Shown: positions 4,441 to 29,606, counted from the stretch's first letter. The stretch is DNA of 32,000 nt from Candidatus Spyradenecus sp. (GCA_045651325.1 JAZRSB010000021.1:10603-42602); one strand, 5' to 3'. Numbers and translations: made by a program. Notes: generated from the letters alone by a model not told the origin.

Positions 4441-4467
4441 AAAAAAGTCCCGTACGGCGTACGGGAC
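4441..4467 (-). terminator. Rho-independent terminator of the tRNA-Thr/tRNA-Gln unit
   Basis: Minus strand reads GTCCCGTAC-GCC-GTACGGGAC (perfect 9-bp stem) followed by TTTTTT, 9 nt after the tRNA-Gln CCA end. Confidence 0.8.
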
Positions 4468-4475
4468 TTCAAAAG

Positions 4476-4559: not shown

Positions 4560-4634
4560 TGGAGCCAGAAGTCAGGATCGAACTGACGACCTATCGCTTA
4601 CAAGGCGATTGCACTACCACTGTGCTATTCTGGC
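4560..4634 (-). tRNA. tRNA-Thr (anticodon UGU), CCA encoded
   Basis: Hand-folded cloverleaf, 75 nt. Acceptor is GCCAGAA/TTCTGGC and D stem is GCAC/GTGC. Anticodon arm is ATCGC-CTTGTAA-GCGAT with anticodon TGT. T arm is GTCAG-TTCGATC-CTGAC, followed by discriminator T and CCA. Confidence 0.9.
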
Positions 4635-10389: not shown

Positions 10390-10425
10390 TAAAAAAAGTC
10401 CTCCCTTTTACGGGAGGACTTTTTT
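10390..10425. terminator. Bidirectional rho-independent terminator between convergent ispG and GH84 genes
   Basis: AAAAAAAGTCCTCCC-TTTTAC-GGGAGGACTTTTTT. The stem is flanked by an A-run and a T-run, so it can terminate both strands. Confidence 0.8.
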
Positions 10426-10444
10426 GCGTATCGCAGAAGCGAAA

Positions 10445-16401: not shown

Positions 16402-17061
16402 ATGAAGCTCGCCTCTTATCTGCTCATTGATGCCTCGTCGCCCGCCTCCGCCATTGTCGCCCGGCTGGATGCCGGCGGACGCGCCTGGGCTCAATTTACG
16501 GAAGAGCCGAGCGCGGCCCTTGAAGGCATCTTTACGGCCGCCGAACGGGTCTGCCCGCAGTTTTCCCCGTCCGGTTTTCTCTTCTGCGAAGGCCCCGGCT
16601 CCATTTTGGGAATACGCATCGCCGCCGCCGCAATTCGCGGACGCAACGCCCTCGGTCCGGCCGTCCCCGTGATGGCATTCCAAAGTCTCCGCCTCGTTGC
16701 AAGCCTGCTTCTGCGCCGTTTCCCGGAAGAAAAAAACTTCGCCGTACTCGCAGAATCGCGCATGAACGCCTGGAACCTCCTGCTTGTCGAAGAAGGCGTC
16801 CCCGCCGAAAACTTCCGGGAAGTTAAAACCGCGGAACTTTCCGCTCTCTCCTTGGAAAAGGTATTTCTGTTGCCGCAACGCCGTCCCGCACCGCCGCCGA
16901 TTCCGACGACGCCCGTGAACCCGGCCCGGCTCCTGCAGGACGATCCCGCCGTCTTCGCCGACACGCCCGCACTCCTGCGCGACTGCGGCGGGCTTCCGGA
17001 CGCCACCAATACCGCCGCGGCATCCGGCTACGCGAAATGGACGCCGGAGCGCCACCGCTAA
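16402..17061 (+). CDS. tsaB: Divergent TsaB (YeaZ)-like tRNA t6A complex dimerisation subunit
   Basis: N-terminal ASKHA-like pattern is LLIDASSPASAIVA...FLFCEGPGSILGIRIAAAAIRG (compare the TsaB pattern ILAIDT...GPGSFTGxRIG). Size is about 220 aa. It is more divergent than typical TsaB, so confidence is only moderate. Confidence 0.55.
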   Translation: MKLASYLLIDASSPASAIVARLDAGGRAWAQFTEEPSAALEGIFTAAERVCPQFSPSGFLFCEGPGSILGIRIAAAAIRGRNALGPAVPVMAFQSLRLVASLLLRRFPEEKNFAVLAESRMNAWNLLLVEEGVPAENFREVKTAELSALSLEKVFLLPQRRPAPPPIPTTPVNPARLLQDDPAVFADTPALLRDCGGLPDATNTAAASGYAKWTPERHR

Positions 17062-17067
17062 GCCCGT

Positions 17068-17112
17068 AAAAAAACAAAAAAAACGTTCCCGCAAACACGG
17101 GAACGTTTTTTT
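17068..17112. terminator. Bidirectional rho-independent terminator between the convergent tsaB-like gene and the paralog pair
   Basis: AAAAAAACAAAAAAAACGTTCCCG-CAAACA-CGGGAACGTTTTTTT. An 11-bp stem is flanked by an A-run and a T-run. Confidence 0.8.
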
Positions 17113-17128
17113 ATCAACGGCTCAATCC

Positions 17129-17863
17129 TTATTGAGCGGCAGCTTCCGAAGCCTTCTTCTGAGCGGCGAGGAATTCTTCCTCGTTCACCTTCGTGTAGAG
17201 CTTCGATTCGACAATTTCCATGAGGTAGTCGCGAGCCAGAGAGAAGCCGTACTGCTTAATCATCAGATCATTGTTCTTGATCAGGTTTTCTTCCGCCGTC
17301 TTGACGTTTTCCAGTGCCTTCGCCTTTTCTTCGCTTTCCGGCATCTTCTTGATGGATTCGTTGAGCGCAACGAGCTGCTGGCGCAGATTGTGCATCACCT
17401 GAACATTGTGGCGGAACTGCGTGTTCGCGTCCGCACCCGGAATTTCGGCGATAAGGCGGAACTTGTCGTCGCCCTTAACCAGCAGCTGTTCGGCCGGAAC
17501 GGAAGCATCGTCCTTAGCGGCGGCGTATTCCGCGTCCGTGAGTTTGAGGAAGATGCGCGTCTTGAGGATCTGGTGGAGGTAGTCGCGAGCCAAGGAATAG
17601 CCGTAAGCGCGGGCCATTGCCTGATTGTTTTCTTCGAGCTTCTTGACGATTTCCTTGCTCTTTTCGAGAGCCGCCGCGCGTTCCGCATCCGTCAACGCCG
17701 TCTTTGCGCGCTGATTCAGTTCAACAACCGCCTGACGCTGGCGTTGAACGACCTGGACGTTTTGAACAAACTGCGTATTCGCTTCAACGGTATTAATCGT
17801 AGAAACGTGGATGAATTTCTGACCGTTCTGCTCGATAAAGTCGAGTGCTGTATTTTCTGCCAT
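17129..17863 (-). CDS. Hypothetical protein, internally duplicated (2 x ~110 aa) coiled-coil module, paralog B, with no signal peptide
   Basis: It starts MAENTALDFIEQNGQKFIHVSTINTVEAN..., exactly where the mature part of paralog A begins. The two modules share NVQV, YG(Y/F)SLARDYL and (T/N)(D/E)(A/E)E(Y/F). I recognise no family. There is a weak resemblance to Skp/OmpH-type chaperones, which is speculative. Confidence 0.6.
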   Translation of the reverse strand: MAENTALDFIEQNGQKFIHVSTINTVEANTQFVQNVQVVQRQRQAVVELNQRAKTALTDAERAAALEKSKEIVKKLEENNQAMARAYGYSLARDYLHQILKTRIFLKLTDAEYAAAKDDASVPAEQLLVKGDDKFRLIAEIPGADANTQFRHNVQVMHNLRQQLVALNESIKKMPESEEKAKALENVKTAEENLIKNNDLMIKQYGFSLARDYLMEIVESKLYTKVNEEEFLAAQKKASEAAAQ

Positions 17864-17893
17864 GATGGGTTTGTACTTAAGGGTGAATAAAAA

Positions 17894-18754
17894 TTATTTT
17901 GCGGGTTCCGTGGTGAGCGTTTCGTCTTCAAGCTCCTTTTGAGCTTCGGCGCGCAGGAATTCTTCTTCCGTCACCTTCGTATAAAGTTTCGAAACGGCGA
18001 TTTCCATGAGGTAGTCACGAGCGATAGAGTAGCCGTAGAACTTCACCATCTGCTCATTGGCCTCGAGGAATTTCTTCTCGTTCTCGGCGAACTGGGCTTC
18101 CGCCTTCTGCTTTTCTTCGCCTTCGGGCATTTTCTTGAGCACTTCGGCAGCCTGGCGCAGGTGATTACGCATCGCCTGCATCTTCTGGACATTCGTGCGG
18201 AATTCCAAATTGCCCTGCTCATTCGAAATTACGGAAACGCGACGGTACTTGTCATCGCCCTTAACCAAAAAGTCTTCGCCGACTTTGAGGTCCTTTCCCT
18301 CTTCCTTCATCTTCGCATACTCCTCTTCCGTGAGCTTCAGGTAGATGTAGGTTTCCACGGGAACATGGATATAATCGCGGGAAAGCGAATAGCCGTAGCT
18401 ATTCGCCATCGTCTGATCGCCCTTATTGAGCTCTTCCGTCAATTCCTTAATCTTTTCGTCCGTGGCCTTGCGTTCTTCTTCCGTGAAGGCCATTTTACGA
18501 TGTTCGTTGAGCTTAATCAGGGTTTGGCGCAACTGAGAGATAATCTGAACGTTACGTGCGAATTCCTGATTGGCCTCGACCGTGGAAAGAGTCGAGACAT
18601 GGAGAAACTTCAAACCGTTCTGTTCGATGTAATCCAACTTTGTTTCGACGGCACCGTCGTTACCGGAATTTGCGGGAGCCGGATCTTCGGCATAAACAAC
18701 GGCGGAAAGAGCAAAAGCCGTAGCGAGGACGGATAGGATATTTTTAATTTTCAT
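17894..18754 (-). CDS. Hypothetical secreted protein, internally duplicated module, paralog A (with signal peptide)
   Basis: Signal peptide is MKIKNILSVLATAFALSAVVYA|EDP. Two modules are each alignable to those of 17129..17863 (A1~B1, A2~B2): LDYIEQNGLKFLHVSTLSTVEAN..YGYSLSRDYI and DFLVKGDDKYRRVSVIS..YGYSIARDYLMEI..KLYTKVTEEEF. Confidence 0.65.
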   Translation of the reverse strand: MKIKNILSVLATAFALSAVVYAEDPAPANSGNDGAVETKLDYIEQNGLKFLHVSTLSTVEANQEFARNVQIISQLRQTLIKLNEHRKMAFTEEERKATDEKIKELTEELNKGDQTMANSYGYSLSRDYIHVPVETYIYLKLTEEEYAKMKEEGKDLKVGEDFLVKGDDKYRRVSVISNEQGNLEFRTNVQKMQAMRNHLRQAAEVLKKMPEGEEKQKAEAQFAENEKKFLEANEQMVKFYGYSIARDYLMEIAVSKLYTKVTEEEFLRAEAQKELEDETLTTEPAK

Positions 18755-18787
18755 AAGCTTGTAATCGAATGATAAAACTCGCGTTCA

Positions 18788-18816
18788 ACAATACGCTTAA
18801 AAAGTATTCTGTTCAA
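18788..18816 (-). promoter_or_regulatory. Probable sigma70-type promoter for the paralog pair
   Basis: Minus strand reads TTGAAC (18816..18811), a 17-nt spacer, then TATTGT (18793..18788). It lies about 34 nt upstream of the ATG at 18754 and immediately after the secretin terminator. Confidence 0.4.
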
Positions 18817-18839
18817 GATATTTTGCGAAATTTAAAGAT

Positions 18840-18875
18840 AAAAGCAGGGCGAGTCCGAAGACCCGCCCTGCTTTT
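18840..18875 (-). terminator. Rho-independent terminator after the secretin gene
   Basis: Minus strand reads AAAAGCAGGGCGGGTC-TTCG-GACTCGCCCTGCTTTT. This is a long GC-rich stem with one mismatch, a TTCG loop and a trailing T-run, 14 nt after the secretin stop. Confidence 0.75.
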
Positions 18876-18888
18876 GCAAACCTCTCTC

Positions 18889-21849
18889 TTATTGGAGGCC
18901 CGTGTTTTCGTCCGCAACCGGTACCGTGTCGTAATCGCGGTAAATCGGTCCCGAAGAAATGAAGAGGCTCGGATTCGAGTAGGTCGATCCCGTTTGGACG
19001 CCCTTGAAGAGACCGTCTTCCGTTCCTCCGCCGCGAGCCATGAGGTTGGCCGTAACGAAGATGAGGAGATTCTTCTTCGTGATGGACTTGCCCGTCGAAC
19101 GGAAGGCAGAGCCGATGAGCGGCAAATCGCCGAGAACCGGAACCTTATCGTTGACCGTGCGGATTTCTTCGCGCGTCAAGCCACCGATAACAATCGTACC
19201 GCCGTCGTAAACTTCCACCGTCGTGGAAACCTGACGGAGATTGAAGACCGGCTGGAAGAAGCCTGCCGGCGTCGTAACAACGATACCGCCCGCAATTGCA
19301 ACGGCCGTTCCGCCGTATTCGATGAAGCCTTCGAATTCCTTGATTTCCGGAGAAAGCTCAAGCGTAATCGACTTTTCCGTGTTGTTCACACGCGGAAGGA
19401 CGCGCATCTGAATACCGACTTCGGTCGCTTCTTCGTCGAACTGCGGCGTACCCGGCGTAATACCGACGGAAGCATTTCCGTAGCCGCTGTTGTTATTGTT
19501 ATTGTCGTTGTTGTAGCTGTTGCTGCCGCTGACGGAAATTTCCATGTCGTCATAGGACTGCGGCCAACGGAGGAGCTGGACGATCTTAATCGTTGCTTCC
19601 ATTTCCGATTGAACCGTGAGGCTCGGAGCCGCCATGAGGTCCGTTCCGTCGCGTGCGCTGAGCGCGTTCAGGATGAGACGGAGGTCGTAGTTGCCGACCG
19701 TTCCGATAACCCCCGTAAAGGTCGGGAGCGTGTCGATCCCGTAGTTGGGCTGACGCGTCACCTGCGGCGGTTTCTGTGCGAATTCCTTTTCCGAGGCTTC
19801 CTTACCCGGGTGGAAGACACCGTCTTCATCCGTGTATTCGTCCGTCGGCGGCGTGTAAATGAGCGTCTTGGAGTCTTCGGAAATCGTGGCGTGCGCACCG
19901 GCAACCGTACGATTGTTCGTCGTTGCACGCGTGAACATGTCATTGCCTTCACCGCGCGTCAGAGCCCAGTTCGTAACGACCTGGTTCAAGACCGTGCTGT
20001 TGACTTCGATAAACTTCGCTTCGATGTTGACCTGCTTCGTTTCCGCCGTGCTCAAGCTGCGGAGGATGTTACGGATACGGTCCATACCCTTGCGGTCCTG
20101 CGTAACGATGAGAAGATTGGAGGTCGCATCGTAAACGAGCGAGCGGTCACCTTCCCAGTTAACACCGGCGCGGGCCAAGAAGTTCTTGATGCCGATTTCT
20201 TCAGCGTTTTCTTCGGCGACTTCTTCGCCGGAGACGCCGAAGGGGCTGCTGGCACCCGCCGAGGAGGTTTTCTTGCCGGCCATGCGGGCAACCACCTTCG
20301 GGGAAACCGTGAATTCTTCCTGGTCAAGACCTGCGGAACCGATATTCGGCGTAACTTCGACGATGCCGTCCTTGTTCACGTCGTAGCGGTAGCCGACCGT
20401 GCTGAGCATGGTCTTCAACACCTTGTCCATCGGCTGGCTCTTCATCTGCAGATTGACGAGCGGCGGATTCTTATTTTCCGGGTCGATGAGGACGATGTCG
20501 ATACCGCGTCCGACCGGGTCATTAATCACCGAGAGTTCGGAAATCGTGTCGATTGCACGCTGGAGCGGAGCGTCACGCAACGTGACGGCAACGTTGATGC
20601 GCGACATCTTGGCTTCGACCGGATTCGTCTTTTCTTCCGAATCGTCAACGGCGGCGACAGCCGTAAAGGGCATCGCGAGTTTCCACTTTTCGCGGACGTC
20701 CGCAAACATCGTTTCGCGGGTCAGCTCGTGGTTGTATTCGCCCGAATTTGCGAGAATCTTACGGATGCGGATCTGCATCGCCTTGGCTTCCGCATTGTCC
20801 GGCATGTAGAGCAAGGCCTTCTGATAGCTTTCGAGAGCGCTCAGGTAGTCGCCGTACTGGTACTGGGCCTTCCCGCGGAGGAGCGCTTCCTTGCATTCCT
20901 GCTGGGCGCGAATGGCGGTCGGGTTCAGGGTTTCCGGGTTTTGGGCATCGGCCGTGCTACGCCATTCCTGATAGAATGCGGCAAGCTGCTTGTAAATTTT
21001 GTGTTCCTTGCCGAGGAGTTCTTCCACCATCTTCATGTAGGAAGCGGCTTCAACGGCGGAGCGGCGTTCAACCATGTCGAAGAAGTAGCCGGAGTAAACG
21101 AGTGCGCGTTCTTCGTCAATTTCCTTGGAAACTTCGGCGGTCGAGGAAACGTTCGGGAGGAGGAGCTTCGCTTCGTCCAAAGACTTAATCGCTTCGGCAA
21201 GCATGTGGCGGGAGCGTTCTTCCTTCGCACGGGAGAGGGAGCGGCGCGATGCCAACGTGCTTTCGCGGATGGCTTCGCGTTCGGCAGCCGTCATTTCTTC
21301 GGCGAGTTGAGCCGGGTCGAGCTTCGTCATCGCCAGCTGAGCCGCTTGACGGGCGACCGCAATCTTGTCGAAATACGGGCGGGATGCCGGGGTCTTCGGC
21401 AATGCGCTCTGGATGTCGGCCAAGAGGCGCAGTGCGCGTTCCGGATCGGTCGGAGCGAGGAATTCGGCTTGCATGATGGCCGCTTCGGCTTCGCGGTAAA
21501 TCGCATTGCGCTGCTGAATGATGCGTTCGAATTCGCTCTTCGGCGCACCTTCGGTTCCCGCCGTCGCCGCCGACTTAATGTCACGGAGTGCGAGTTCCGC
21601 TTCCGCGAGACGTCCCTTAGCCTGCTCGTTGTTCGGATCAAGCTTCAGGAAGGCGCGATACTTTTCGATTGCGACATCGAACTTCTGTTCGGACGCAGCG
21701 CTTTCCGCCTCGAGGTAAAGCTTGGCTTTGAGTTGATCGTTATCCTCACCTTCTGCAAACGCGCTCGGAGACGCGACAACCGCGCCTGCGAGGGCGGTCG
21801 TGATGAAAGCGGAGGAAATGACTTTTTGGATGCGCAACTGGTTTTTCAT
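18889..21849 (-). CDS. Outer-membrane secretin (PilQ/GspD superfamily) fused to a ~400-aa N-terminal TPR/helical domain; Amuc_1098-type by position
   Basis: Signal peptide is ...AGAVVASPSAFA|EGE. Helical TPR-like repeats include KYRAFLKLDPNNEQAKGRL and YLSALESYQKALLYMPDNAEAK. An N0/STN-like domain is INVAVTLRDAPLQRAIDTISELS. The canonical secretin core is VSTTVEVYDGGTIVIGGLTREEIRTVNDKVPVLGDLPLIGSAFRSTGKSITKKNLLIFVTANLM. Confidence 0.9.
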   Translation of the reverse strand: MKNQLRIQKVISSAFITTALAGAVVASPSAFAEGEDNDQLKAKLYLEAESAASEQKFDVAIEKYRAFLKLDPNNEQAKGRLAEAELALRDIKSAATAGTEGAPKSEFERIIQQRNAIYREAEAAIMQAEFLAPTDPERALRLLADIQSALPKTPASRPYFDKIAVARQAAQLAMTKLDPAQLAEEMTAAEREAIRESTLASRRSLSRAKEERSRHMLAEAIKSLDEAKLLLPNVSSTAEVSKEIDEERALVYSGYFFDMVERRSAVEAASYMKMVEELLGKEHKIYKQLAAFYQEWRSTADAQNPETLNPTAIRAQQECKEALLRGKAQYQYGDYLSALESYQKALLYMPDNAEAKAMQIRIRKILANSGEYNHELTRETMFADVREKWKLAMPFTAVAAVDDSEEKTNPVEAKMSRINVAVTLRDAPLQRAIDTISELSVINDPVGRGIDIVLIDPENKNPPLVNLQMKSQPMDKVLKTMLSTVGYRYDVNKDGIVEVTPNIGSAGLDQEEFTVSPKVVARMAGKKTSSAGASSPFGVSGEEVAEENAEEIGIKNFLARAGVNWEGDRSLVYDATSNLLIVTQDRKGMDRIRNILRSLSTAETKQVNIEAKFIEVNSTVLNQVVTNWALTRGEGNDMFTRATTNNRTVAGAHATISEDSKTLIYTPPTDEYTDEDGVFHPGKEASEKEFAQKPPQVTRQPNYGIDTLPTFTGVIGTVGNYDLRLILNALSARDGTDLMAAPSLTVQSEMEATIKIVQLLRWPQSYDDMEISVSGSNSYNNDNNNNNSGYGNASVGITPGTPQFDEEATEVGIQMRVLPRVNNTEKSITLELSPEIKEFEGFIEYGGTAVAIAGGIVVTTPAGFFQPVFNLRQVSTTVEVYDGGTIVIGGLTREEIRTVNDKVPVLGDLPLIGSAFRSTGKSITKKNLLIFVTANLMARGGGTEDGLFKGVQTGSTYSNPSLFISSGPIYRDYDTVPVADENTGLQ

Positions 21850-21912
21850 GCGGGGCCAATTCGAGTTAAGTGGTTTATCAGAGCTGGGGTCTGGTTGAAA
21901 TTTCGGGTTAAA

Positions 21913-22923
21913 TTATCGTGCGAGGTCTAAAACAACTTGGCGAACCTTGGGGCGCTTCGATTTGCCGTTAGACTCCGATTGTTTGGTTATTGTTGCCTGT
22001 TGAGCGGAAATGTCAACAATTTTGACAAAATAAGTTGCACTTCCCGCTTGGAACGAAGGCTCATTTCCGAGAGAAACCCACGGTTCGGCGGAAGATTCGC
22101 GCGTCATGAGCTCGATTTCGGGCTTTTCCGCTCCGGCGACGAAGGTTTCGCGGTAGCGCCACTCGCGGGAGGAGAACTCGTCGCGGAAAACCGCTTCGAC
22201 GCGGGAGGCGTCGCGGACGAATTCCTCAAGAGCGCGGAACTCTTTATCCTTGTCTTCGTGGTCAACAAAGGTCGCCATATACTTTGTATAGAACGTACCG
22301 TCACCGCTTTCGCTTTCGCCGCGAACGATTTTGAAATCCTTCAGAGCGACGTTTTGTCCGGCGATTTCCGCGGGGCGGCGCGGAGTCAAGGAAATAATCG
22401 TACGTCCTTCGAGTTCTTCCTTGCTCATTTTGACGCCCGCGATACGGCGGAAGTCCACGGAAGCTTCACCGCCCTTGGGATCGGCGAATTTCACGAAGGT
22501 CTGGAAAGCGGTTCCCTTGCCGTCGGCGTTTTTAACGCGGCGCGGCGGCACATCGGACGAGCAGGCAGCGACGCGCAGGCGGGAAAGCGGATTTTCCATC
22601 GACACGAGGCTGATTCCGAAAGGTTCTTCCGGCGGGACGGGCAATTCCTTGGCGATGTATTTCTTTTCCCCGGAGAGCCAGGTCGTTTCCGGCGTGGAGA
22701 ACAGGTCGTAGTTCCATCCCGTTTCCATGTCCAGACTCGGCGAGTTCCATTTTTCGGGAGCGGCGGCAAAAGACTTGTCATCCTTCCATGCGGCGAAGGC
22801 GGAGCCCGAGGGCTTCAGGGAGCCCCCCGATTTGGCTTCCGGCTTCATTCCGAGATAAACGCCGAAACCGGCAAGGCAGGCGACCAAACCCAAAATAAAA
22901 ACAATCTTATCGTAATGCTTCAT
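21913..22923 (-). CDS. Membrane-anchored periplasmic protein in the PilP position (Amuc_1099-type by position); function unknown
   Basis: The N-terminal TM anchor is MKHYDKIVFILGLVACLAGFGVYLG, followed by a soluble beta-rich region. It sits 63 nt upstream of the secretin and 12 nt downstream of the preceding gene. I recognise no motif. Confidence 0.55.
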   Translation of the reverse strand: MKHYDKIVFILGLVACLAGFGVYLGMKPEAKSGGSLKPSGSAFAAWKDDKSFAAAPEKWNSPSLDMETGWNYDLFSTPETTWLSGEKKYIAKELPVPPEEPFGISLVSMENPLSRLRVAACSSDVPPRRVKNADGKGTAFQTFVKFADPKGGEASVDFRRIAGVKMSKEELEGRTIISLTPRRPAEIAGQNVALKDFKIVRGESESGDGTFYTKYMATFVDHEDKDKEFRALEEFVRDASRVEAVFRDEFSSREWRYRETFVAGAEKPEIELMTRESSAEPWVSLGNEPSFQAGSATYFVKIVDISAQQATITKQSESNGKSKRPKVRQVVLDLAR

Positions 22924-22935
22924 TGTGAAAACTTT

Positions 22936-24048
22936 CTATTCGGATTTTTGAGTCTCTTCCTTTTCTTCCTTCTTCTGTCCCTTCGGCGTGATGTATTCCA
23001 AGGTGACGGTAAACAGTTCCGGAACATTTTCCACGATAACCCGGCGGGCGGGCACACGCGGAGCGCTCGCCTGCTCAACGGCGGTAACGGCCGTACCGGC
23101 TCCGAAGAGGTCAAACGGATTGACGGAGGCCGGGGCTGCGACAGCCGGGCCCGACGCGGGAGCATTTTTCGGCGGAAGCATGTCCGGCGTAGCGCGCGAC
23201 GCCTCAATGTCACGCACATAAATCGGATACGATTCGAGGCGTTGCATGAACTTACGCAACACGCCGGTGTCGCCGACAAAAGCGATGCGGAATGCGAGCG
23301 CGTCAACAGCCCGGTCGCGGCGGAGCGACTGGTAGCTTACTTCCTTCGACGCGGCATCCGAAAGTTTCACAAAGCCGGTATCGCCGGATTCGGCAATCGC
23401 ATCCACGACGATTTCGTCGCGTTGCAGCGAGCGGCGTTGCACCTGCGAAAGTTCGAGGCCTTCGCGCGCCATCGCCATCAGCTTCAGATAGGTCGTATCC
23501 GAAGCGGCAAGCACGTTAGCGGCACGCAATTCGCGCTCGTTGTCCTCACGGGCTTCGACAAGCGTCTTCAGCAATGCGCCCGTAACGGCGGCTTCAAGAT
23601 CCAATTTTTCCAGTTTATCCGCCGGAGCGCTTTCGTTTGCGACGAGGTAACGGGAGAAACCGAATCCGCGCGTTGCCGGCGCCAATTCCACATGCTGCTC
23701 TTCGCAGAGGCGCGTCCAATCGCGGTTACGCTCCGTCAGCAGAGACATAAACTGGGTGGCATCGCCCTTGAAGAATGTTTCGAGACGCTTGGGCTGCAGA
23801 AGCGTTCCCACGCGCACCTTCATCGAGTCCTTCAGAGCTTCAATCGAGGCCGTCCCCTGCTCGAGGTTTTCTTCGGAAAGCGCGAGCGTCTTGCGCTTCA
23901 CCAGCTTGTCGAGTTTCTTTTTATTTTTCTCGATCGCCGCTTCTTTCTTTCCGTTGTCGAGCATGGTCGAAACCGAAACGGCGAGTCCGCCGACAAACAC
24001 GATTCCGCAGAGAGCCAAAATCAGGATTAGAGGTAAATTTTTCTTCAT
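22936..24048 (-). CDS. Membrane-anchored coiled-coil protein in the PilO position; architecture resembles the Akkermansia Amuc_1100 family
   Basis: It has an N-terminal TM anchor (MKKNLPLILILALCGIVFVGGLAV), a coiled coil and an alpha/beta domain (AFRIAFVGDTGVLRKFMQRLESYPIYVRDIE). These are followed by an Ala/Pro-rich linker and a short terminal beta segment plus a Lys/Glu tail. This is the same domain order I recall for Amuc_1100. Its start lies 3 nt after the PilM/N gene stop. Confidence 0.6.
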   Translation of the reverse strand: MKKNLPLILILALCGIVFVGGLAVSVSTMLDNGKKEAAIEKNKKKLDKLVKRKTLALSEENLEQGTASIEALKDSMKVRVGTLLQPKRLETFFKGDATQFMSLLTERNRDWTRLCEEQHVELAPATRGFGFSRYLVANESAPADKLEKLDLEAAVTGALLKTLVEAREDNERELRAANVLAASDTTYLKLMAMAREGLELSQVQRRSLQRDEIVVDAIAESGDTGFVKLSDAASKEVSYQSLRRDRAVDALAFRIAFVGDTGVLRKFMQRLESYPIYVRDIEASRATPDMLPPKNAPASGPAVAAPASVNPFDLFGAGTAVTAVEQASAPRVPARRVIVENVPELFTVTLEYITPKGQKKEEKEETQKSE

Positions 24049-24051
24049 GGC

Positions 24052-25797
24052 TTAAAGTCCTTTGTCGGATTTGATACGGAGCGTAAGTGTCAGGGTCGGC
24101 AGATTCGGCTTGGAGAAGTCCGGCTTGTCCTTGATTTTCACGCTTTTATCAACGAATTCAGATGCCTTCAGCGATTCGAGAATCAGGTTGCGGCGCGCTT
24201 CGAAAACGCTGGAATTGTGTTCCGGATTATCGGCATCGACTTCCGGAATCAGCATCGCAAATTTGATTTCGACATCGCAAACGACGCCGGCGGGATTTTC
24301 TCCGTCCGCTTTTTTGAGCGAGCGGCGTACAGCCAACGAATCGAGCCAGATGTGGCGATCCGACGAGAAAATCGTTTCGCCCTCTTCGCCGGTAGCGGTG
24401 CGCGTCTGCAGGCGCGTCAGGCAGGCCTGTCCGTCCGCCATAAAGTCGTTCCAGCGGAAGCGCTTGTCGAGCACGGAGAACACTTCGTCCAGATAAGCCT
24501 TCATCTTCCGGCTCTGTTCGTCCAAATTGGTGAGTTGTTCTTCGCGGTCTTCGAGAACCCGAATCTGCTTCGCTTGGGCCGCACGCATATTTTCGAGCGT
24601 CGCGCCGACATCCGAGAGGTGCATCCAAACCGGCCACGGAGCAAGCGCCAGGAAGACGCCGGCAAGCGCCAGGAAAGGCATCTTCTTCTTGAAATCAAGT
24701 TCCTTGGCGATTTCCGGCGGAAGCAGATTGACGCCTTCGATGCCCGGCATAACGAGCGCGGAGGCTTCGCCGATTACTTCCTGCAACTCAAAGCGTTCGT
24801 TGAAGACCTTGTCCGTGTCCACGCCGGAAGCGCAGGAAAGAAGCGGGGTCACGTCGAGCACTTCGACGGGAACGCGCTGCAGTTCCGACAGTTTCTTCGC
24901 CATGTCCGGCAGGAGCGAACCGCGGCCGGAAATGAAAATTTTCTTCGGACCGACCCCGCCGTTCGCGCGCTTGAACGCGATGAGACGGCGCGTAATGTCT
25001 TGGCTGAGGCGACGGATGAACGAATCCGCAGCCGCAAGAATCGTCGCAGGCACGGGGTCGTCGTACGAGAAGCGGGCCGTTTCCGTAAAATACGCGATTT
25101 TTTTCTGCTCGGCCGCCTGGAATGCAACCCCGGTCGCTTCGGCAAGTTTTTGCGTCACGTAATTGCCGCCGAGACCGATATTGTTGATATCGAAACCGTT
25201 TTCGGTGACAAAGGTGAGATTGGTCGTGTGGGCGCCGACATTGACGATGAGCGCCGGGCCGACGTCTTCCCCGCCCTGCGAGAGCAGGTAACGGTAAGCC
25301 TGAACGTCGAGATTCGTTGCCGGCTGAATCGTGTCGGGAACAATCTTGGCTTCCTTGATGAGCAGGTTTGTAAAGCGTACGATTTCGGTCCGCTTCAAAG
25401 CGAAAATAACGACGCTTTCTTCAACGCCGTCGGAAGCGATAACCTGGCTTCCCCAAACGAGTTCTTCCAGCGGGAAGGGGAAGTTGCTCCGGGCTTCAAA
25501 CGCAATAACGCCTTCACGCTTCGAGGCTTCCACCTGCGGAACACGGACATTGCGGGTCAGCAGGAGCTGGCCGGGGGCAATGACCACGATTTCGCCCTTC
25601 GGCTTCATCGTCGAGAAGATATTGCGCAACGCATTTGTCGCCGCAACCGGCCATTCCTCTTTTTCCGTGTAGTTGTAAACAAGATTTTCGACGACGAGCT
25701 TTTCAAGCACCAGAGACCCCGCATCCGCAGAAAATACGGAAACGGAGACCTGCGTCGTCCCGCAGTTAATTATAGTTTTTGTCGCATTACTGCCCAT
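24052..25797 (-). CDS. PilM-like actin-fold ATPase fused to a PilN-like TM/periplasmic segment (Amuc_1101-type by position)
   Basis: Residues 1-355 form the ASKHA/PilM pattern: IINCGTTQVSVSVF, LIVNVGAHTTNLTFV, IGLGGNYVTQKLAE, IFISGRGSLLPDMAKKLSE. Next come the PilN signature VNLLPPEI, a TM helix (MPFLALAGVFLALAPWPVWM), a coiled coil and a C-terminal alpha/beta domain. Confidence 0.8.
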   Translation of the reverse strand: MGSNATKTIINCGTTQVSVSVFSADAGSLVLEKLVVENLVYNYTEKEEWPVAATNALRNIFSTMKPKGEIVVIAPGQLLLTRNVRVPQVEASKREGVIAFEARSNFPFPLEELVWGSQVIASDGVEESVVIFALKRTEIVRFTNLLIKEAKIVPDTIQPATNLDVQAYRYLLSQGGEDVGPALIVNVGAHTTNLTFVTENGFDINNIGLGGNYVTQKLAEATGVAFQAAEQKKIAYFTETARFSYDDPVPATILAAADSFIRRLSQDITRRLIAFKRANGGVGPKKIFISGRGSLLPDMAKKLSELQRVPVEVLDVTPLLSCASGVDTDKVFNERFELQEVIGEASALVMPGIEGVNLLPPEIAKELDFKKKMPFLALAGVFLALAPWPVWMHLSDVGATLENMRAAQAKQIRVLEDREEQLTNLDEQSRKMKAYLDEVFSVLDKRFRWNDFMADGQACLTRLQTRTATGEEGETIFSSDRHIWLDSLAVRRSLKKADGENPAGVVCDVEIKFAMLIPEVDADNPEHNSSVFEARRNLILESLKASEFVDKSVKIKDKPDFSKPNLPTLTLTLRIKSDKGL

Positions 25798-25829
25798 AGG
25801 ACGTATCGAGAAGAGTTTAAGTAAAGGAA

Positions 25830-26591
25830 TTATTGTTGGACTTCGTCACGCACGATAGACGGTGCGGCCTTGAGGAAGCCGTATCCGCCCGGCGTCAGGT
25901 ACGCGGGGAGGAAGAGTCCCTTGGTTTCCGAAACGGCGGCGTCCGCCCAATTGCAAAGCTGTTCGAAATGTTTCACTTCCTTGATTTGCGCGTCGATGTA
26001 GTTGGCGCGGCGCTTTCCGGCGGCGTCAAAAGCTCCGATGACCATGTCGTTGTATTCGAATTCGACGTAGTAGAATCGCGGCTTCGCGTTGCCGGGCATC
26101 TTTTCCTTGTCGCGCTCGACGATTTCGCCGGGAATATAGAACGTGAATTCCTTCTTGCCGTCATTGACCTTGAGGGCGGCAAAAGTCACGGCCGCGCGGT
26201 AGTAAGTGTAGGCATCGCCCTGCCCGCCGCCGGATTCCGCAACGGCTTTTTCGACCATGGCCTTGCCTCGGCTGCCGCGGGCGCGGGAACCGGTAGCGCC
26301 CTCGGAAGAAAGCGAAGCCGCCGTCTTATCGTAAACCAGGGTTACGCGGAGCTTCACGTTGTTCAGAAACGTCGAAGGCAGGTAATCCTTGTTGGCGTTC
26401 ACCTTAAATTCCACCTTGGTCTGAGCCCATTTGTAGGCGGGATCGGCGTTCGGCATCTGGACAACCTTGAAATCGACTTTTTGCACCTGAATGTCGGGCA
26501 CCTTGGCGGCGACATCTTGGGCGAATGCGGAAACGGCGAGGGCCGCAAGGGCAGAGAACAGTACAAGGAATTTTTTTAAGGGATTTTTCAT
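25830..26591 (-). CDS. Secreted hypothetical protein, first gene of the pilus-like module (Amuc_1102-type by position)
   Basis: The track ORF starts at a TTG (26600). I prefer the ATG at 26591 (MKNPLKKFLVLFSALAALAVSAFA|QD, a clean signal peptide). The protein is beta-rich and I recognise no motif. It lies 32 nt upstream of the PilM/N gene. Confidence 0.55.
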   Translation of the reverse strand: MKNPLKKFLVLFSALAALAVSAFAQDVAAKVPDIQVQKVDFKVVQMPNADPAYKWAQTKVEFKVNANKDYLPSTFLNNVKLRVTLVYDKTAASLSSEGATGSRARGSRGKAMVEKAVAESGGGQGDAYTYYRAAVTFAALKVNDGKKEFTFYIPGEIVERDKEKMPGNAKPRFYYVEFEYNDMVIGAFDAAGKRRANYIDAQIKEVKHFEQLCNWADAAVSETKGLFLPAYLTPGGYGFLKAAPSIVRDEVQQ

Positions 26592-26728
26592 AAAGGGCAA
26601 GATTTAGGGGTTGGAGAGAAAACTGATTGGCATAAATTAAAGGCTTTAGAAGCGCCGTTTCAATCACAAAAACGGAGGAAACCGGTAGGAAAGTTCGGAC
26701 GCCGAAGTCGCTTTACGAAGCGCGGAAA

Positions 26729-27235
26729 TCACCAAACTCCGACAACCGTATCCCGGATTTTACGGGCGGCGTCACGGGAAAGTTGCGGGAATACCTGTGT
26801 TTCCAAAAGTCCGGCCTGCCCGCCCATGTAATTTTCGGAGGTAACGCTAACCGGACGGTTGCGGAAGTAATACTTTCCCGTCCGCATATTGCGCAGCGAG
26901 CAATTCAGCGTCACCGTCATCGTCGTCGTGCTGGCGACATCCGTGTTGCGGGAATTCGTCAGAGAAATCCGGCGCGTCACGTCCGCAATAACGACGGTCA
27001 GCTCCGCCTGTCCGTTATAGGGAACGACTTCCAGGCCGGCTTCATCGTTCAGACGGTCGATGATATTGCGCGCGAGCGTCGCCTGCGTCTGCGCCAGGTC
27101 GGTCATATTTTCCACGGGCGCGAGCATGATGGTCGAGAACGGCAGTTTCCCGCGTCCTCCGACGGAATAGGTGCAGGAGGTGCTCCAAAGCATTCCCGCA
27201 AACAAACAAATAACGATGAACAGGCGTTTAAGCAT
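26729..27235 (-). CDS. lptE: LptE-like LPS-assembly lipoprotein
   Basis: ORF 26729..27385 trimmed to the ATG at 27235 (MLKRLFIVICLFAGMLWSTSC|TYS, a lipoprotein-type signal). The body follows the LptE pattern: PFSTIMLAPVENMTDLAQTQATLARNIIDRL..., AELTVVIADV, TMTVTLNCSLRNMRTGKYYF. Its start lies 4 nt after the BamD-like stop. Confidence 0.6.
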   Translation of the reverse strand: MLKRLFIVICLFAGMLWSTSCTYSVGGRGKLPFSTIMLAPVENMTDLAQTQATLARNIIDRLNDEAGLEVVPYNGQAELTVVIADVTRRISLTNSRNTDVASTTTMTVTLNCSLRNMRTGKYYFRNRPVSVTSENYMGGQAGLLETQVFPQLSRDAARKIRDTVVGVW

Positions 27236-27239
27236 AGTG

Positions 27240-28601
27240 TTAGGCATCTTCTCCGGGTTCGTTAAACACGCGGCGCGAATCGTTGACGGGCGGCTTTTTA
27301 TCTTCCGGGTCGCTCGTCCGCTCCGGCGATTCCGCAGAACGGAATCCCATTTCCTCGAGTGACTGCTGCGAAGGGGCGTCCGCAAAGTCCTTCGTACGCG
27401 GCGCCGGGTAGCGCCCGAAAAGCCAATCGATGAAAGTCAGCTCGGCGCGTTCTCCGCGACGGATCTTTTCTATGCGCTTGCGAGCCTCGGCGGCGGCGGG
27501 AGAATCCGGCGCGTGCGTGAGCGCTTCGTTGTAAAACACGAGCGCCGAACGCATATTGTTGCGTCGCACATAGTAAAAATCGCCCACGGAGAGCCGATTC
27601 TGAGCAATCAGCGAGCGCAGGGCCTCCGTGCGGGAGTACGCGAATTCGGCCTGCGGGTGCTCGGGATAAAGCGTGTAAAAATCGGTATAATAATTGAGAG
27701 CCCGCCGCGTGGACACCTGGTCCCAATCCGCTCCCGGGCAAAGGCTTTCGTAGGTTGCCGCCAAACGCAGATAGGCCTCGGGGACAAGCGGCGAATCCGG
27801 ATGCACGCTGATGAGCTGCTCAAAGGCATCGATTGCCTCTTGCGTCCGTTCGCCCTCGAAGACCTCCGTCGCAATTTCCGAAGCAAAGACGCCTTTTTGG
27901 AAAAGCACACGCGGCGCTATCGAAGACTGCGGTGCCATCGCGTAAAGTTCGTCGTAAAAGCGCAACACCGCCTTGCGGTCCTTCAACCACGGAATACCGA
28001 ACTTACGCGGGCGCACACCCTGGCGTCCCATTTCGGCAATCATGTAGCCCTGCGTCAGCGCATCGGCGATACGGTCCGACCCCGGATAGGTTTCAACCAA
28101 GGTGCGAATGCGCGCAAAAGCATCTTCAAAGCGACGCGTCATCGCCAGAATGACACATTGCTGATACATGGCTTCCGCGGCAAAAAGAGTCGTCGGGAAC
28201 GCGACAATCACCGCTTCGTAAGCCGAACGGGCGGCATCGCAGTCTCCGCTTAAGGTATAAAGCGCAGGTTCTCCGGCGGTATCGGCATGATTCGGCTCCC
28301 GTTGCAGGCTGTAAGCACTCGCCAGGCGCGCAATGGCATCGACGCAAACCGAGTCCGCCAGACGCCAATTCCGCGAACGCACCCAAAGCCCTTCGGCGTA
28401 GGCGCGTACAAGCGCTTCCCGTTCGCCGAGTCGTTCGCCGCGGGCCTCAATCCGGGCCGCGATTTCATTCCAGCGGGCATCCGAGGCTACGGCATTTTCC
28501 GAAGGACCGGCATTGATCGCCGCCTTTTCGTCCGCAGGTTCCGCCCACGCGGGAAGAGCCAGCAAGCCCGTAGCCAACAACGCTGTCGCGAAAGCCTTCA
28601 T
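27240..28601 (-). CDS. bamD: TPR-repeat BamD (YfiO)-like outer-membrane assembly factor, unusually long (453 aa)
   Basis: A signal peptide (MKAFATALLATGLLALPAWA) is followed by repeated TPR-like helices. Examples are AEAMYQQCVILAMTRRFEDAFARIRTLVETYPGS, PEAYLRLAATYESL, YTLYPEHPQAEFAY and MRSALVFYNEALTHAPDSPAAAEARKRIEKI. There is no canonical lipobox, and the tail is acidic and disordered. Confidence 0.5.
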   Translation of the reverse strand: MKAFATALLATGLLALPAWAEPADEKAAINAGPSENAVASDARWNEIAARIEARGERLGEREALVRAYAEGLWVRSRNWRLADSVCVDAIARLASAYSLQREPNHADTAGEPALYTLSGDCDAARSAYEAVIVAFPTTLFAAEAMYQQCVILAMTRRFEDAFARIRTLVETYPGSDRIADALTQGYMIAEMGRQGVRPRKFGIPWLKDRKAVLRFYDELYAMAPQSSIAPRVLFQKGVFASEIATEVFEGERTQEAIDAFEQLISVHPDSPLVPEAYLRLAATYESLCPGADWDQVSTRRALNYYTDFYTLYPEHPQAEFAYSRTEALRSLIAQNRLSVGDFYYVRRNNMRSALVFYNEALTHAPDSPAAAEARKRIEKIRRGERAELTFIDWLFGRYPAPRTKDFADAPSQQSLEEMGFRSAESPERTSDPEDKKPPVNDSRRVFNEPGEDA

Positions 28602-28607
28602 TCCGGA

Positions 28608-29606
28608 TTATTTCCAACGGATGAGCGTCGCGCCCCAAGTAAATCCGCCGCCGAATGCCGTCAAAAGCACCAAATCTCCGGCCTTGAAACGTCCGGCATC
28701 GTAAGCTTCCTTCATGCAGTTCGGAATCGTCGCCGACGACGTATTTCCGTAGTTCTGGAGATTGACACAGAATTTTTCGAGCGGAATGCCGACCTGACGC
28801 GCCACGGCATCAATGATACGCAAATTCGCCTGGTGCGGGATAACGCATTTAATTTCGTCTGCAGAGACATTGCATTTTTCAAGCAGGCGTTTGCAGCAGT
28901 CGGACATCGTACGGACCGCGACCTTAAAGACTTCCTGACCGGCCATGTGCAGGTAGTGAGCGCCGTCGTGGACGGTTTCGTAGCTCGCCGGGCAGGCACT
29001 TCCGCCTGCGGGCAAGCTCAGCAGATCACCGCTCGAACCGTCGGCGCCGAGAATATTGCCGAGGATGCCGACATAGGGCTCGTTGCATTTCGTAAGCACA
29101 AACGCCGCCGCCGCATCGCCGAAAAGCACGCAGGTATTGCGGTCTTCCCAATTGACGATCGAAGAGAGCTTTTCCGTCGAAATAATCAACACGTTGCGAT
29201 AGTCGCCGGCGCGCAACATATGATTCGCGACCTGCATCATGTAGATGAAGCCCGAGCAGGCGGCCGACATATCGAACGCCGGCACGTCCTTGATTCCGAG
29301 CTTCGCCTGCGTACGGCAGGCCGTTGACGGGAAGGAGTGGTCCGGTGTCGCCGTCGCCACGATAATCAAATCGATTTCTTCCTTGGAGATTCCGGCATTT
29401 TCGATGGCCTTTTCCCCGGCCTTCGCCGCCATATCCGAAGCACTTTCATCCGCATCGGCGAGACGACGCTCGATGATTCCCGTACGCGTACGAATCCATT
29501 CGTCGGAGGTATCGACAAGGCGCGTCAAATCGGCATTAGTCAAGCGGCGCTCCGGCGTATAAACGCCCATGCCGCGAACATAAACGGACGGTGTTGGAGT
29601 TCTCAT
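28608..29606 (-). CDS. fabH: 3-oxoacyl-[ACP] synthase III (FabH)
   Basis: Motifs are DTSDEWIRTRTGIIERR, the active-site Cys in DMSAACSGFIYMMQVA, IPHQANLRIID, NYGNTSSATIP and AFGGGFTWGA. Confidence 0.93.
   Translation of the reverse strand: MRTPTPSVYVRGMGVYTPERRLTNADLTRLVDTSDEWIRTRTGIIERRLADADESASDMAAKAGEKAIENAGISKEEIDLIIVATATPDHSFPSTACRTQAKLGIKDVPAFDMSAACSGFIYMMQVANHMLRAGDYRNVLIISTEKLSSIVNWEDRNTCVLFGDAAAAFVLTKCNEPYVGILGNILGADGSSGDLLSLPAGGSACPASYETVHDGAHYLHMAGQEVFKVAVRTMSDCCKRLLEKCNVSADEIKCVIPHQANLRIIDAVARQVGIPLEKFCVNLQNYGNTSSATIPNCMKEAYDAGRFKAGDLVLLTAFGGGFTWGATLIRWK

What the first reader, a model, noticed from the sequence alone, without database searches (positions are those of the whole stretch)
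18889..26600. Five-gene PilM/N-O-P-Q-like secretin module of the Akkermansia Amuc_1098-1102 type, with no pilin, ATPase, platform or peptidase gene nearby
Seen: five co-directional genes separated by only 32, 3, 12 and 63 nt. They encode a secreted protein, a PilM actin-fold domain fused to a PilN-like NLLPPE/TM segment, a TM-anchored coiled-coil protein, a TM-anchored periplasmic protein and a 986-aa secretin. The order is collinear with pilMNOPQ. Nowhere in the 32 kb did I see a class III (prepilin) signal peptide such as G|FTLIE, a PilB/PilT/GspE Walker-box ATPase, a PilC/GspF platform or a prepilin peptidase. Established, from memory: Akkermansia muciniphila carries the same five-gene arrangement (Amuc_1098 secretin through Amuc_1102). 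Amuc_1100 is an abundant outer-membrane, TLR2-active protein, but what the cluster assembles or secretes has not been established. Inference: this is a PVC-lineage envelope-spanning machine derived from the T4P alignment subcomplex, possibly working without a cognate filament. It is the best candidate in the window for an undescribed system.
Basis: partly seen in the sequence, partly recalled or inferred. Interest (0 to 1): 0.8.

Follow-up and report, generated by a model that had tools for sequence, protein, structure and literature searches.

The report
MUL2-type pilus-like secretin gene cluster
A gut Opitutales bacterium carries a five-gene cluster for an outer-membrane secretin channel and its inner-membrane scaffold; it is a distant copy of the 'MUL2' cluster that Akkermansia needs for mucin uptake, so it is real and well conserved but already a described kind of system.

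Summary
There are five minus-strand genes with gaps of 32, 3, 12 and 63 nt. They encode a Sec-exported β-sandwich protein, a PilM domain fused through an NLLP motif to a PilN-like membrane segment, a bitopic coiled-coil protein, a bitopic β-rich protein and a 986-aa TPR-secretin. No prepilin signal and no PilB/GspE-type Walker box occurs in the window, nor in 1.9 Mb of related loci.

The window is not from Akkermansia. It is about 97% identical to a 'Candidatus Spyradenecus' (Opitutales) MAG. All five proteins are positional counterparts of Amuc_1102 to Amuc_1098. PilM and the secretin match clearly, the Amuc_1100 counterpart moderately, the Amuc_1102 counterpart through its predicted fold (Foldseek top hit PDB 7DSZ), and the Amuc_1099 counterpart only weakly. 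The same gene order recurs in about 80 Opitutia loci.

[quoted passage not shown] A. muciniphila encodes PilC elsewhere, so a split pilus-like machine is the leading reading. The filament-free idea could not be tested here.

Verdict: a new, distant member of a known kind whose biochemical mechanism is still unresolved. Interest is moderate to low.

The parts
25830..26591 (-). g5: Sec-exported Ig-like β-sandwich protein of 253 aa, counterpart of Amuc_1102/Mul2A. Signal peptide with an AFA|Q site at 24/25. It is not a type IV pilin.
   Evidence: No Pfam, NCBIfam or PDB sequence hit. AF2 model pLDDT 80.5. The Foldseek top hits, and the only significant ones, are 7DSZ Amuc_1102 chains at E 2.2e-5, probability 1.0 and target-normalised TM 0.6. 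hhalign against the Amuc_1102 family gives 53.6%, E 1.3e-4, against ≤0.3% for non-cognate pairs. A24 is nearly invariant, Q25 and the C-terminal Q are invariant, and there is no G-F-T-L-x-E motif.
24052..25797 (-). g4: cytoplasmic PilM actin-like domain (aa 1-340) fused through a 'VNLLPPE' motif (aa 356-362, nt 24712-24732) to a PilN-like TM segment (aa 373-394), a coiled coil and a periplasmic domain. Counterpart of Amuc_1101/Mul2B.
   Evidence: PilM_2 at 7.8e-18. Amuc_1101_fam at 1.8e-63 and 215 bits, below the cut-off of 650. The family profile hits PDB PilM 3JC8 at 5.6e-28, plus 2YCH and 5EOU. PilN 3JC8_Na is hit only at E 0.36, but in register at 349-437. V356, N357, L358 and P360 are invariant in 18 sequences. 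The Opitutia HMM hits Amuc_1101 at 1.2e-71.
22936..24048 (-). g3: bitopic protein with an N-terminal TM helix, a coiled coil and a C-terminal αβ domain. Counterpart of Amuc_1100, in the PilO/GspM position.
   Evidence: Amuc_1100_fam at 6.1e-12 and 45.6 bits, below the cut-off of 180. PDB 6LAF (Amuc_1100) at E 3.9e-4 over aa 212-340. hhalign against the Amuc_1100 family gives 95%, E 4e-8 over 233 columns. No PilO, PilN or GspM Pfam hit in 15 diverse homologues.
21913..22923 (-). g2: bitopic protein with a TM helix at aa 3-25, a conserved linear motif at aa 59-103 (nt 22615-22749) and an all-β domain at aa 104-333. It sits in the PilP/GspC position and is the positional counterpart of Amuc_1099.
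   Evidence: AF2 model pLDDT 76, with the motif region below 50. No PDB fold match, TM about 0.12. No Pfam, NCBIfam or PDB sequence hit. hhalign against the Amuc_1099 family gives only 28.8%, E 6e-4, but non-cognate pairs give ≤0.3%. The N-terminal 'YDK[IL]' is shared with Amuc_1099. The motif is conserved across 15 diverse homologues.
18889..21849 (-). g1: 986-aa secretin. Signal peptide (AFA|E near aa 32), TPR-rich N-terminal region (about aa 40-380), N0-like domain (about aa 417-501), N1-like domain (about aa 558-599) and secretin domain (aa 730-937) carrying an Asn-rich loop (aa 774-794). Counterpart of Amuc_1098 'PilQ'.
   Evidence: Secretin at 3.3e-30 plus TPR hits. Amuc_1098_fam at 1.4e-103 and 347 bits, below the cut-off of 750. 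GspD model 132 bits, PilQ model 100 bits. PDB GspD at 1e-15 and PilQ at 5.7e-13. The Opitutia HMM hits Amuc_1098 at 5e-119. The N0 call is my reading of the sequence.
17894..18754 (-). d1: 286-aa exported coiled-coil protein with an internal duplication. Possible accessory gene, function unknown.
   Evidence: Lies 134 nt after the secretin with no terminator between them. A d1/d2 pair lies within 4 kb of the secretin in 28 of 47 Opitutia loci that extend far enough. No family or PDB hit.
17129..17863 (-). d2: 244-aa paralogue of d1 without a signal peptide. Possible accessory gene, function unknown.
17077..17112 (-). Intrinsic-terminator-like hairpin (16-bp stem followed by a T run). Probable 3' end of the transcription unit.
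   Evidence: It is the only strong terminator-like site on the minus strand between 28700 and 16900.

Best explanation
The five genes are the Opitutales version of the Akkermansia MUL2 cluster (Amuc_1102 to Amuc_1098). They form an envelope-spanning module derived from the PilM-N-O-P-Q alignment and secretin part of type IV pilus / type II secretion machines.

Proposed working (inferred):
- The TPR-secretin multimerises into the outer-membrane channel. Its fused TPR region stands in for a pilotin.
- g4 holds a cytoplasmic PilM actin-like domain tied by its own NLLP peptide to a PilN-like bitopic segment.
- g4 pairs in the inner membrane with the PilO-position protein g3 (Amuc_1100-like).
- g2, anchored in the inner membrane, uses its conserved docking peptide and β domain to bridge this pair to the N0 domain of the secretin, as PilP and GspC do.
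- g5 is a Sec-exported Ig-like subunit with the Amuc_1102 fold. It acts in the periplasm or at the channel and is not a type IV pilin.
- The module is the static half of a split machine. The class-III-signal subunits, the ATPase, the platform protein and the prepilin peptidase are encoded elsewhere.
- Its physiological role is capture or transport of large host or algal glycans across the outer membrane. This has been shown genetically only for Akkermansia.
For: Shown here:
- Gene order, spacing and domains.
- Homology of g4 and g1 to Amuc_1101 and Amuc_1098, and of g3 to Amuc_1100.
- The g5 model matches the Amuc_1102 crystal structure as the only significant PDB matches (7DSZ chains).
- In the hhalign matrix cognate pairs score and non-cognate pairs do not.
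- The PilM profile hits solved T4aP PilM structures, and its next segment aligns in register with PilN.
- The NLLP motif is invariant.
- The five-gene order is kept in about 80 Opitutia loci in unrelated neighbourhoods.

From the literature:
[quoted passage not shown] - Amuc_1098 is an outer-membrane TPR-secretin and the most abundant OM protein.
- Amuc_1100 is described as structurally similar to PilO/PilN.
- PilC is Amuc_1584, and other pilus proteins are encoded elsewhere in A. muciniphila.

The window also encodes GH2 and GH84 glycosidases, which fits a glycan-foraging organism.
Against: - No pilin, ATPase, platform or peptidase gene was seen in the window or in 1.9 Mb of related loci. Their existence in this genome is assumed, not shown.
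- g3 and g2 hit no PilO, PilN, PilP, GspM or GspC model.
- The g2 model has no PDB fold match, so its PilP-like role rests on position and topology only.
- The g2 to Amuc_1099 link is weak (28.8%).
- All NCBIfam hits are below the equivalog cut-offs.
- The function has been tested only in Akkermansia, and I could not read the primary paper.
Confidence: 0.55

Rival explanations
1. A type II secretion-like exporter. g4 acts as a GspL equivalent (a fused PilM-like plus PilN-like protein), g3 as GspM, g2 as GspC and g1 as GspD. Together with a pseudopilus encoded elsewhere, the machine pushes folded glycosidases or surface proteins out of the periplasm. Under this reading the glycan-uptake defects seen in Akkermansia are indirect.
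For: - The secretin scores higher on the GspD model (132 bits) than on the PilQ model (100 bits).
- Its best solved relatives are GspD chains.
- The fused cytoplasmic-domain / TM / periplasmic-domain architecture of g4 is the GspL layout. This is established knowledge of T2SS, not tested here.
- There is a weak GspM-model hit on g4 aa 376-436 at E 0.029.
- Exported glycosidase genes lie in the window.
Against: - The cytoplasmic domain matches PilM families and PilM structures, not GspL.
- g4 keeps the PilN-type NLLP peptide.
- The secretin is far below the GspD cut-off (132 against 351 bits) and has a TPR N-terminus instead of the usual N0-N3 array.
- There are no GspC or GspM hits for g2 or g3.
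- Reviews describe the Akkermansia phenotype as an import defect.
Confidence: 0.2
2. A filament-independent machine. The secretin is a gated large-bore conduit for glycan import. It is held and regulated by the PilM-N/O/P-like scaffold and uses the Ig-like g5 protein as its periplasmic or surface ligand-binding subunit. No type IV pilin, ATPase or platform protein takes part.
For: - The module is never adjacent to pilin or ATPase genes in 127 loci, 1.9 Mb in total.
- It moves as a self-contained five-gene unit between neighbourhoods.
- Its first gene is a Sec-type, non-pilin subunit conserved across the phylum.
Against: - No genome-wide absence of pilins or motors has been shown.
- A. muciniphila has PilC and other pilus proteins elsewhere.
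- In every characterised system PilM-type proteins work with PilB, PilC or PilT. This is established knowledge.
- PVC genomes typically carry many prepilin-type proteins. This is from memory and was not tested.
Confidence: 0.15

Closest known systems
Akkermansia muciniphila MUL2 locus (Amuc_1102/Mul2A, Amuc_1101/Mul2B, Amuc_1100, Amuc_1099, Amuc_1098 'PilQ')
   Same: - The same five genes in the same order with similar sizes.
- A TPR-secretin and a PilM fused to a TM segment.
- An Amuc_1100-like bitopic protein.
- An Amuc_1102-fold first gene with a Sec signal peptide.
- No pilin or ATPase within 10 kb.
   Different: - The host is in a different class (Opitutia), a group that the 2026 survey did not cover.
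- The sequences are very diverged. All NCBIfam hits are below the equivalog cut-offs, and g5 and g2 are undetectable by plain HMM search.
- The NLLP motif is invariant here but reads 'NIDLEP' in Amuc_1101.
- g5 has a conserved R-x-E-V-Q-Q C-terminus that Amuc_1102 lacks.
- The linked d1/d2 genes were not found in the Akkermansia loci.
Type IVa pilus alignment subcomplex PilM-PilN-PilO-PilP with secretin PilQ (Myxococcus, Pseudomonas, Thermus)
   Same: - The order M, N, O, P, Q.
- PilM homology to the solved structures 3JC8, 2YCH and 5EOU.
- A PilN-type NLLP peptide.
- Bitopic coiled-coil proteins in the N and O positions.
- An inner-membrane-anchored β protein before the secretin.
   Different: - PilM and PilN are fused.
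- There is no detectable PilO or PilP sequence or fold membership.
- g2 is anchored by a TM helix rather than being a lipoprotein.
- The secretin has TPRs and no AMIN domains.
- There is an extra first gene with an Ig-like fold.
- There are no pilin or motor genes nearby.
Type II secretion assembly platform and secretin (GspL-GspM-GspC-GspD)
   Same: - A fused cytoplasmic actin-like domain, TM segment and periplasmic domain, as in GspL.
- The secretin scores slightly better on GspD than on PilQ.
   Different: - The cytoplasmic domain belongs to the PilM family, not GspL.
- There are no GspC or GspM hits.
- There are no gspE, gspF or gspG-K genes in the locus.
Archaeal type IV pilins, the published comparison for the Amuc_1102 Ig-like fold (Xiang et al. 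2021, cited)
   Same: An Ig-like β-sandwich body. The g5 model matches 7DSZ.
   Different: - g5 has an ordinary Sec/SPase I signal (AFA|Q).
- It has no class III signal and no long N-terminal α1 helix.
- No pilin structure appears among its top 50 PDB matches.

Membership tests
MUL2 / Amuc_1098-1102 cluster | Five co-directional genes in the order 1102-like, PilM-like 1101, 1100-like, 1099-like, TPR-secretin 1098 | tested here: met
   Window genes compared with the Akkermansia locus L085. The same order is seen in about 80 Opitutia loci.
MUL2 / Amuc_1098-1102 cluster | Secretin and PilM-like protein homologous to Amuc_1098 and Amuc_1101 | tested here: met
   NCBIfam E 1.4e-103 and 1.8e-63. Opitutia HMMs hit Amuc_1098 at 5e-119 and Amuc_1101 at 1.2e-71.
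MUL2 / Amuc_1098-1102 cluster | Scores at or above the NCBIfam equivalog cut-offs for Amuc_1098_fam, Amuc_1100_fam and Amuc_1101_fam | tested here: not met
   347.5 against 750, 45.6 against 180 and 215.3 against 650 bits. These are distant relatives, not equivalogs.
MUL2 / Amuc_1098-1102 cluster | Amuc_1100 homologue | tested here: met
   Amuc_1100_fam at 6.1e-12, 6LAF at 3.9e-4, hhalign 95% with E 4e-8. A profile of diverse Opitutia members alone did not recover 6LAF.
MUL2 / Amuc_1098-1102 cluster | Mul2A/Amuc_1102 Ig-like fold with a Sec signal peptide | tested here: met
   Foldseek hit to 7DSZ at E 2.2e-5, probability 1.0, TM 0.46 and 0.59. AxA|Q site. There is no direct sequence hit. hhalign gives 53.6%.
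MUL2 / Amuc_1098-1102 cluster | Amuc_1099 homologue | tested here: inconclusive
   hhalign gives 28.8%, E 6e-4 over 77 columns, against ≤0.3% for non-cognate pairs. Same size, position and TM topology, with a shared N-terminal YDK[IL]. There is no HMM hit.
MUL2 / Amuc_1098-1102 cluster | Required for glycan (mucin) acquisition | not testable with these tools
   Known only from Akkermansia genetics as reported second-hand.
Canonical type IVa pilus PilMNOPQ | PilM actin-like ATPase-fold protein | tested here: met
   PF11104 at 7.8e-18. PDB PilM at 5.6e-28.
Canonical type IVa pilus PilMNOPQ | PilN and PilO family membership (PF05137, PF04350) | tested here: not met
   No hit at E≤1 for g4 or g3, nor for 15 g3 homologues. 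PilN 3JC8_Na is hit only at E 0.36.
Canonical type IVa pilus PilMNOPQ | PilP lipoprotein with an HR β-sandwich domain | tested here: not met
   g2 has a TM helix, with no PilP Pfam or PDB hit and no fold match.
Canonical type IVa pilus PilMNOPQ | Class-III-signal pilin(s), PilB/PilT ATPase, PilC and PilD in the genome | not testable with these tools
   Absent from the window and from ±10 kb around 127 related loci. The rest of the genome could not be read.
Type II secretion system | GspD equivalog plus GspL, GspM and GspC family proteins | tested here: not met
   GspD 132 bits against a cut-off of 351. No GspL or GspC hit. GspM only at E 0.029 on g4.
Type IV pilin (for g5) | Class III signal (G|F-T-L-x-E) and a long hydrophobic N-terminal α1 helix | tested here: not met
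   The consensus N-terminus is MKNPLxK...AFA|QE. AF2 gives a short low-confidence helix at aa 5-20, then coil, then β strands.

The most novel reading that the evidence does not exclude
The module is a self-sufficient, filament-free secretin machine. It would be an outer-membrane import gate for large glycans, a Verrucomicrobiota alternative to SusC/D, held by a PilM-N/O/P-derived scaffold. The Sec-exported Ig-like g5/Mul2A protein, and in many Opitutia the d1/d2 coiled-coil pair, would be its dedicated periplasmic partners.
Probability: 0.15. Interest if true: 0.8.

Novelty: new member of a known kind. Interest (0 to 1): 0.35.

Why it matters
MUL2 is the locus that produces Amuc_1100, the best-known host-active Akkermansia protein, and it is reported to be needed for mucin uptake. 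How it works is still unknown.

The same module is conserved gene for gene in a different class, Opitutia, which spans gut, freshwater and marine lineages. It is always detached from pilin and motor genes. This argues that it is an ancient, general envelope device of Verrucomicrobiota rather than a mucin-specific adaptation.

The deep comparison also singles out features worth testing:
- the invariant NLLP tether in g4;
- the conserved docking peptide of g2;
- the invariant C-terminus of g5;
- the linked d1/d2 genes.

None of this changes the classification, which is a known kind of system.

Tried and rejected
- **Exact-protein look-up of the window PilM:** not on record.
- **Primary papers:** Davey 2023 and Hughes 2025 are not held, so their content is cited second-hand.
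- **g5 by sequence:** phmmer and a 19-sequence profile against the PDB found nothing. Only the fold search linked it to Amuc_1102.
- **g2:** a single-sequence-template hhalign against Amuc_1099 gave 4%. A first family run was contaminated by over-long ORFs, and after cleaning it gave 28.8%. The fold search gave only noise, with TM about 0.12. The PDB profile search was empty.
- **g3:** a diverse Opitutia profile lost the 6LAF hit.
- **g4 C-terminal half against g3:** hhalign gave 63% over the TM and coiled-coil part only, which is too compositional to count as PilN/PilO paralogy.
- **d1/d2:** no Pfam or PDB hit.
- **Rfam:** only two tRNAs.
- **Promoter scan:** uninformative, with 3 sites found against 4.1 expected.
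- **Rejected, that the window is from Akkermansia:** the best genome match is an Opitutales MAG at 97%, and identity to the Akkermansia proteins is far lower.
- **Rejected, that g5 is a pilin:** it has no class III signal and no α1 helix.

Full report
**Observation.** The minus strand of 18889-26591 carries five tightly spaced ORFs of 253, 581, 370, 336 and 986 aa, with gaps of 32, 3, 12 and 63 nt.
- The last protein is a secretin (PF00263, E 3.3e-30) with TPR hits in its N-terminal half.
- The second has a PilM domain (PF11104, E 7.8e-18) followed by 'VNLLPPE' and a TM segment.
- The other three have no Pfam family.
- A six-frame scan found no class-III prepilin motif. The generic Walker A scan gave two matches, both in stop-interrupted, non-coding frames.
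- All other large ORFs are housekeeping or envelope genes: a GH2 gene running off the left end, transketolase, an S49 peptidase, UDG, IspG, GH84, DsbD, LpxR, LptE, a BamD-like TPR protein, FabH, MenC-like and RibF.

**Organism.** The PilM-like protein is 97% identical to one encoded on a 'Candidatus Spyradenecus sp.' MAG and 96% identical to one on an Opitutales MAG from buffalo colon. The closest named relative of the fourth gene is 'Candidatus Spyradosoma', which NCBI places in Opitutia. The window is from a gut Opitutales bacterium, not Akkermansia.

**Relation to the Akkermansia cluster.** NCBIfam holds curated models for this cluster. Amuc_1098_fam, Amuc_1101_fam and Amuc_1100_fam hit g1, g4 and g3 at E 1.4e-103, 1.8e-63 and 6.1e-12, all well below the equivalog cut-offs.

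I fetched the Akkermansia locus from gut metagenomes using a fragment of Amuc_1100. It has the same five genes in the same order, at 242/612/317/337/907 aa. HMMs built from about 80 Opitutia homologues hit Amuc_1101 (1.2e-71) and Amuc_1098 (5e-119), but not the three small proteins in the reference locus L085 (the Amuc_1100 HMM hit only a 91% variant, L118, at 1.6e-7).

Profile-profile comparison gave a clean diagonal:

| Pair | Probability | E-value |
|---|---|---|
| g3 vs Amuc_1100 | 95% | 4e-8 |
| g5 vs Amuc_1102 | 53.6% | 1.3e-4 |
| g2 vs Amuc_1099 | 28.8% | 6e-4 |
| all six non-cognate pairs | ≤0.4% | ≥0.13 |

The AlphaFold model of g5 (pLDDT 80.5) has the Amuc_1102 crystal structure 7DSZ as its only significant PDB matches (two chains): E 2.2e-5, probability 1.0, target-normalised TM 0.59-0.60. 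g2 shares size, position, TM topology and an N-terminal YDK[IL] with Amuc_1099, but its model has no fold match.

The 'Amuc_1098-1102 type' call is therefore right. These are distant relatives rather than equivalogs.

**Conservation.**
- One scan of species-representative genomes returned 80 loci, almost all labelled Opitutia, Opitutales, Puniceicoccales or Verrucomicrobiota.
- Wherever the contig allows, the five genes occur in the same order, and in unrelated neighbourhoods.
- No locus has a prepilin motif or a GspE/PilB-type Walker A within ±10 kb. The same is true of 44 Akkermansia loci.

**What the parts look like.**
- **g4.** Its profile hits the solved T4aP PilM structures 3JC8 (5.6e-28), 2YCH and 5EOU. 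The next segment aligns weakly but in register with PilN (E 0.36). V356, N357, L358 and P360 are invariant. g4 is therefore a PilM fused to its own PilN-type tether, which is the GspL-like layout.
- **g3.** It has a TM helix, a coiled coil and an αβ domain. It is homologous to Amuc_1100, which the literature describes as PilO/PilN-like.
- **g2.** It has a TM helix, a strongly conserved but low-pLDDT linear motif (aa 59-103) and a β domain. This is the PilP/GspC position and topology, but there is no PilP or GspC membership.
- **g1.** It scores about equally on GspD and PilQ. Like Amuc_1098, it carries an N-terminal TPR region.
- **g5.** It has an AFA|Q Sec site and no α1 helix, so it is not a type IV pilin.

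**Literature.**
- Amuc_1098-1102 has been called a pili-like cluster since 2016-2017.
[quoted passage not shown] Amuc_1102 is Mul2A and Amuc_1101 is Mul2B.
- A 2026 ISME J paper reports the locus across Akkermansiaceae and other Verrucomicrobiales and less often in Chthoniobacterales. Opitutales were not among the orders it surveyed.
- A. muciniphila has PilC (Amuc_1584) and other pilus proteins elsewhere in its genome.

**Interpretation.**
- The best-supported reading is the static alignment-plus-secretin half of a split pilus-like or T2SS-like machine used for glycan foraging (confidence 0.55).
- A T2SS-like exporter (0.2) and a filament-free import gate (0.15) remain open.

**Novelty.** This is a new, distant member of a known kind. 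Small additions are:
- the Opitutia distribution;
- the conserved g2 docking motif;
- the invariant g5 C-terminus;
- a pair of uncharacterised coiled-coil genes (d1/d2) that probably share the transcript here, with a terminator only after d2, and that lie next to the module in 28 of 47 informative loci.

Noticed in passing
window 17129-18754 (-), terminator 17077-17112: Two paralogous genes of unknown function, d1 (286 aa, with a signal peptide) and d2 (244 aa, without one). Each is an internal tandem duplication of a unit made of a β segment, a coiled coil and a 'GYSLxRDY' segment. They follow the secretin with no terminator before them and a strong one after. A similar pair, one with a signal peptide and one without, lies within 4 kb of the secretin in 28 of 47 Opitutia loci, often on the opposite strand. 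The pair was not found next to the module in Puniceicoccaceae or Spyradosoma loci, nor anywhere in the Akkermansia loci. They look Skp/OmpH-like to me, but this was not tested.
   Followed up: partly
window 22615-22749 (-), g2 aa 59-103: This is the best-conserved stretch of g2 (W..P..D...GWNYDLF..PE..W.....KYIAKELP.....PFG). It lies between the TM helix and the β domain and is predicted disordered (pLDDT below 50). It is probably a docking peptide whose partner is unknown.
   Followed up: partly
window 25830-25865 and 26517-26522 (-), g5 termini: The g5 family has an invariant Gln immediately after the AxA signal-peptidase site and an invariant C-terminal ...R-x-E-[VI]-Q-Q. Neither the C-terminal motif nor detectable sequence similarity is kept in Amuc_1102.
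   Followed up: no
window 19468-19530 (-), secretin aa 774-794: There is an Asn/Gly/Tyr-rich low-complexity loop (SGSNSYNNDNNNNNSGYGNAS) inside the secretin domain. Amuc_1098 has a similar NSGYNNGYGYGNNGN stretch at the equivalent place, so this looks like a lineage-specific loop.
   Followed up: no
window 26729-29606 (-): A FabH gene, a BamD-like TPR/YfiO gene and an LptE gene lie directly upstream on the same strand. The two maximal ORFs 27240-28601 and 26729-27385 overlap by 146 nt, so the LptE start is probably further downstream. This neighbourhood is kept only in close relatives (L001, L004-L007) and not in distant ones.
   Followed up: partly
window 4479-4550 and 4563-4634 (-): Two tRNA genes sit back to back just upstream of the transketolase gene. 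The first, at 4479-4550, overlaps the 5' end of the maximal transketolase ORF (2382-4523), so that start is probably over-called.
   Followed up: no
window 1-1575 (-) and 10445-12901 (-): A GH2-like glycosidase gene runs off the left end of the window, and there is a GH84 β-N-acetylglucosaminidase gene. Both fit a host-glycan-degrading gut bacterium. Long antisense ORFs (163-1509 +, 10424-12751 +, 18769-21930 +) are artefacts of the high G+C content.
   Followed up: partly
L012, L013, L014, L016, L025, L037: Contigs carrying Opitutia-type modules at 36-48% identity to the window have record titles naming Sphaerochaetaceae, Bacteroidaceae, Enterobacteriaceae, Klebsiella or Akkermansia muciniphila. 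These are probably binning or taxonomy errors in the public MAGs.
   Followed up: no
window 17001-19000: G+C drops to about 0.50 over d1/d2, against 0.55-0.62 elsewhere in the window. The ISME J 2026 supplement also notes lower G+C at MUL2 loci.
   Followed up: no
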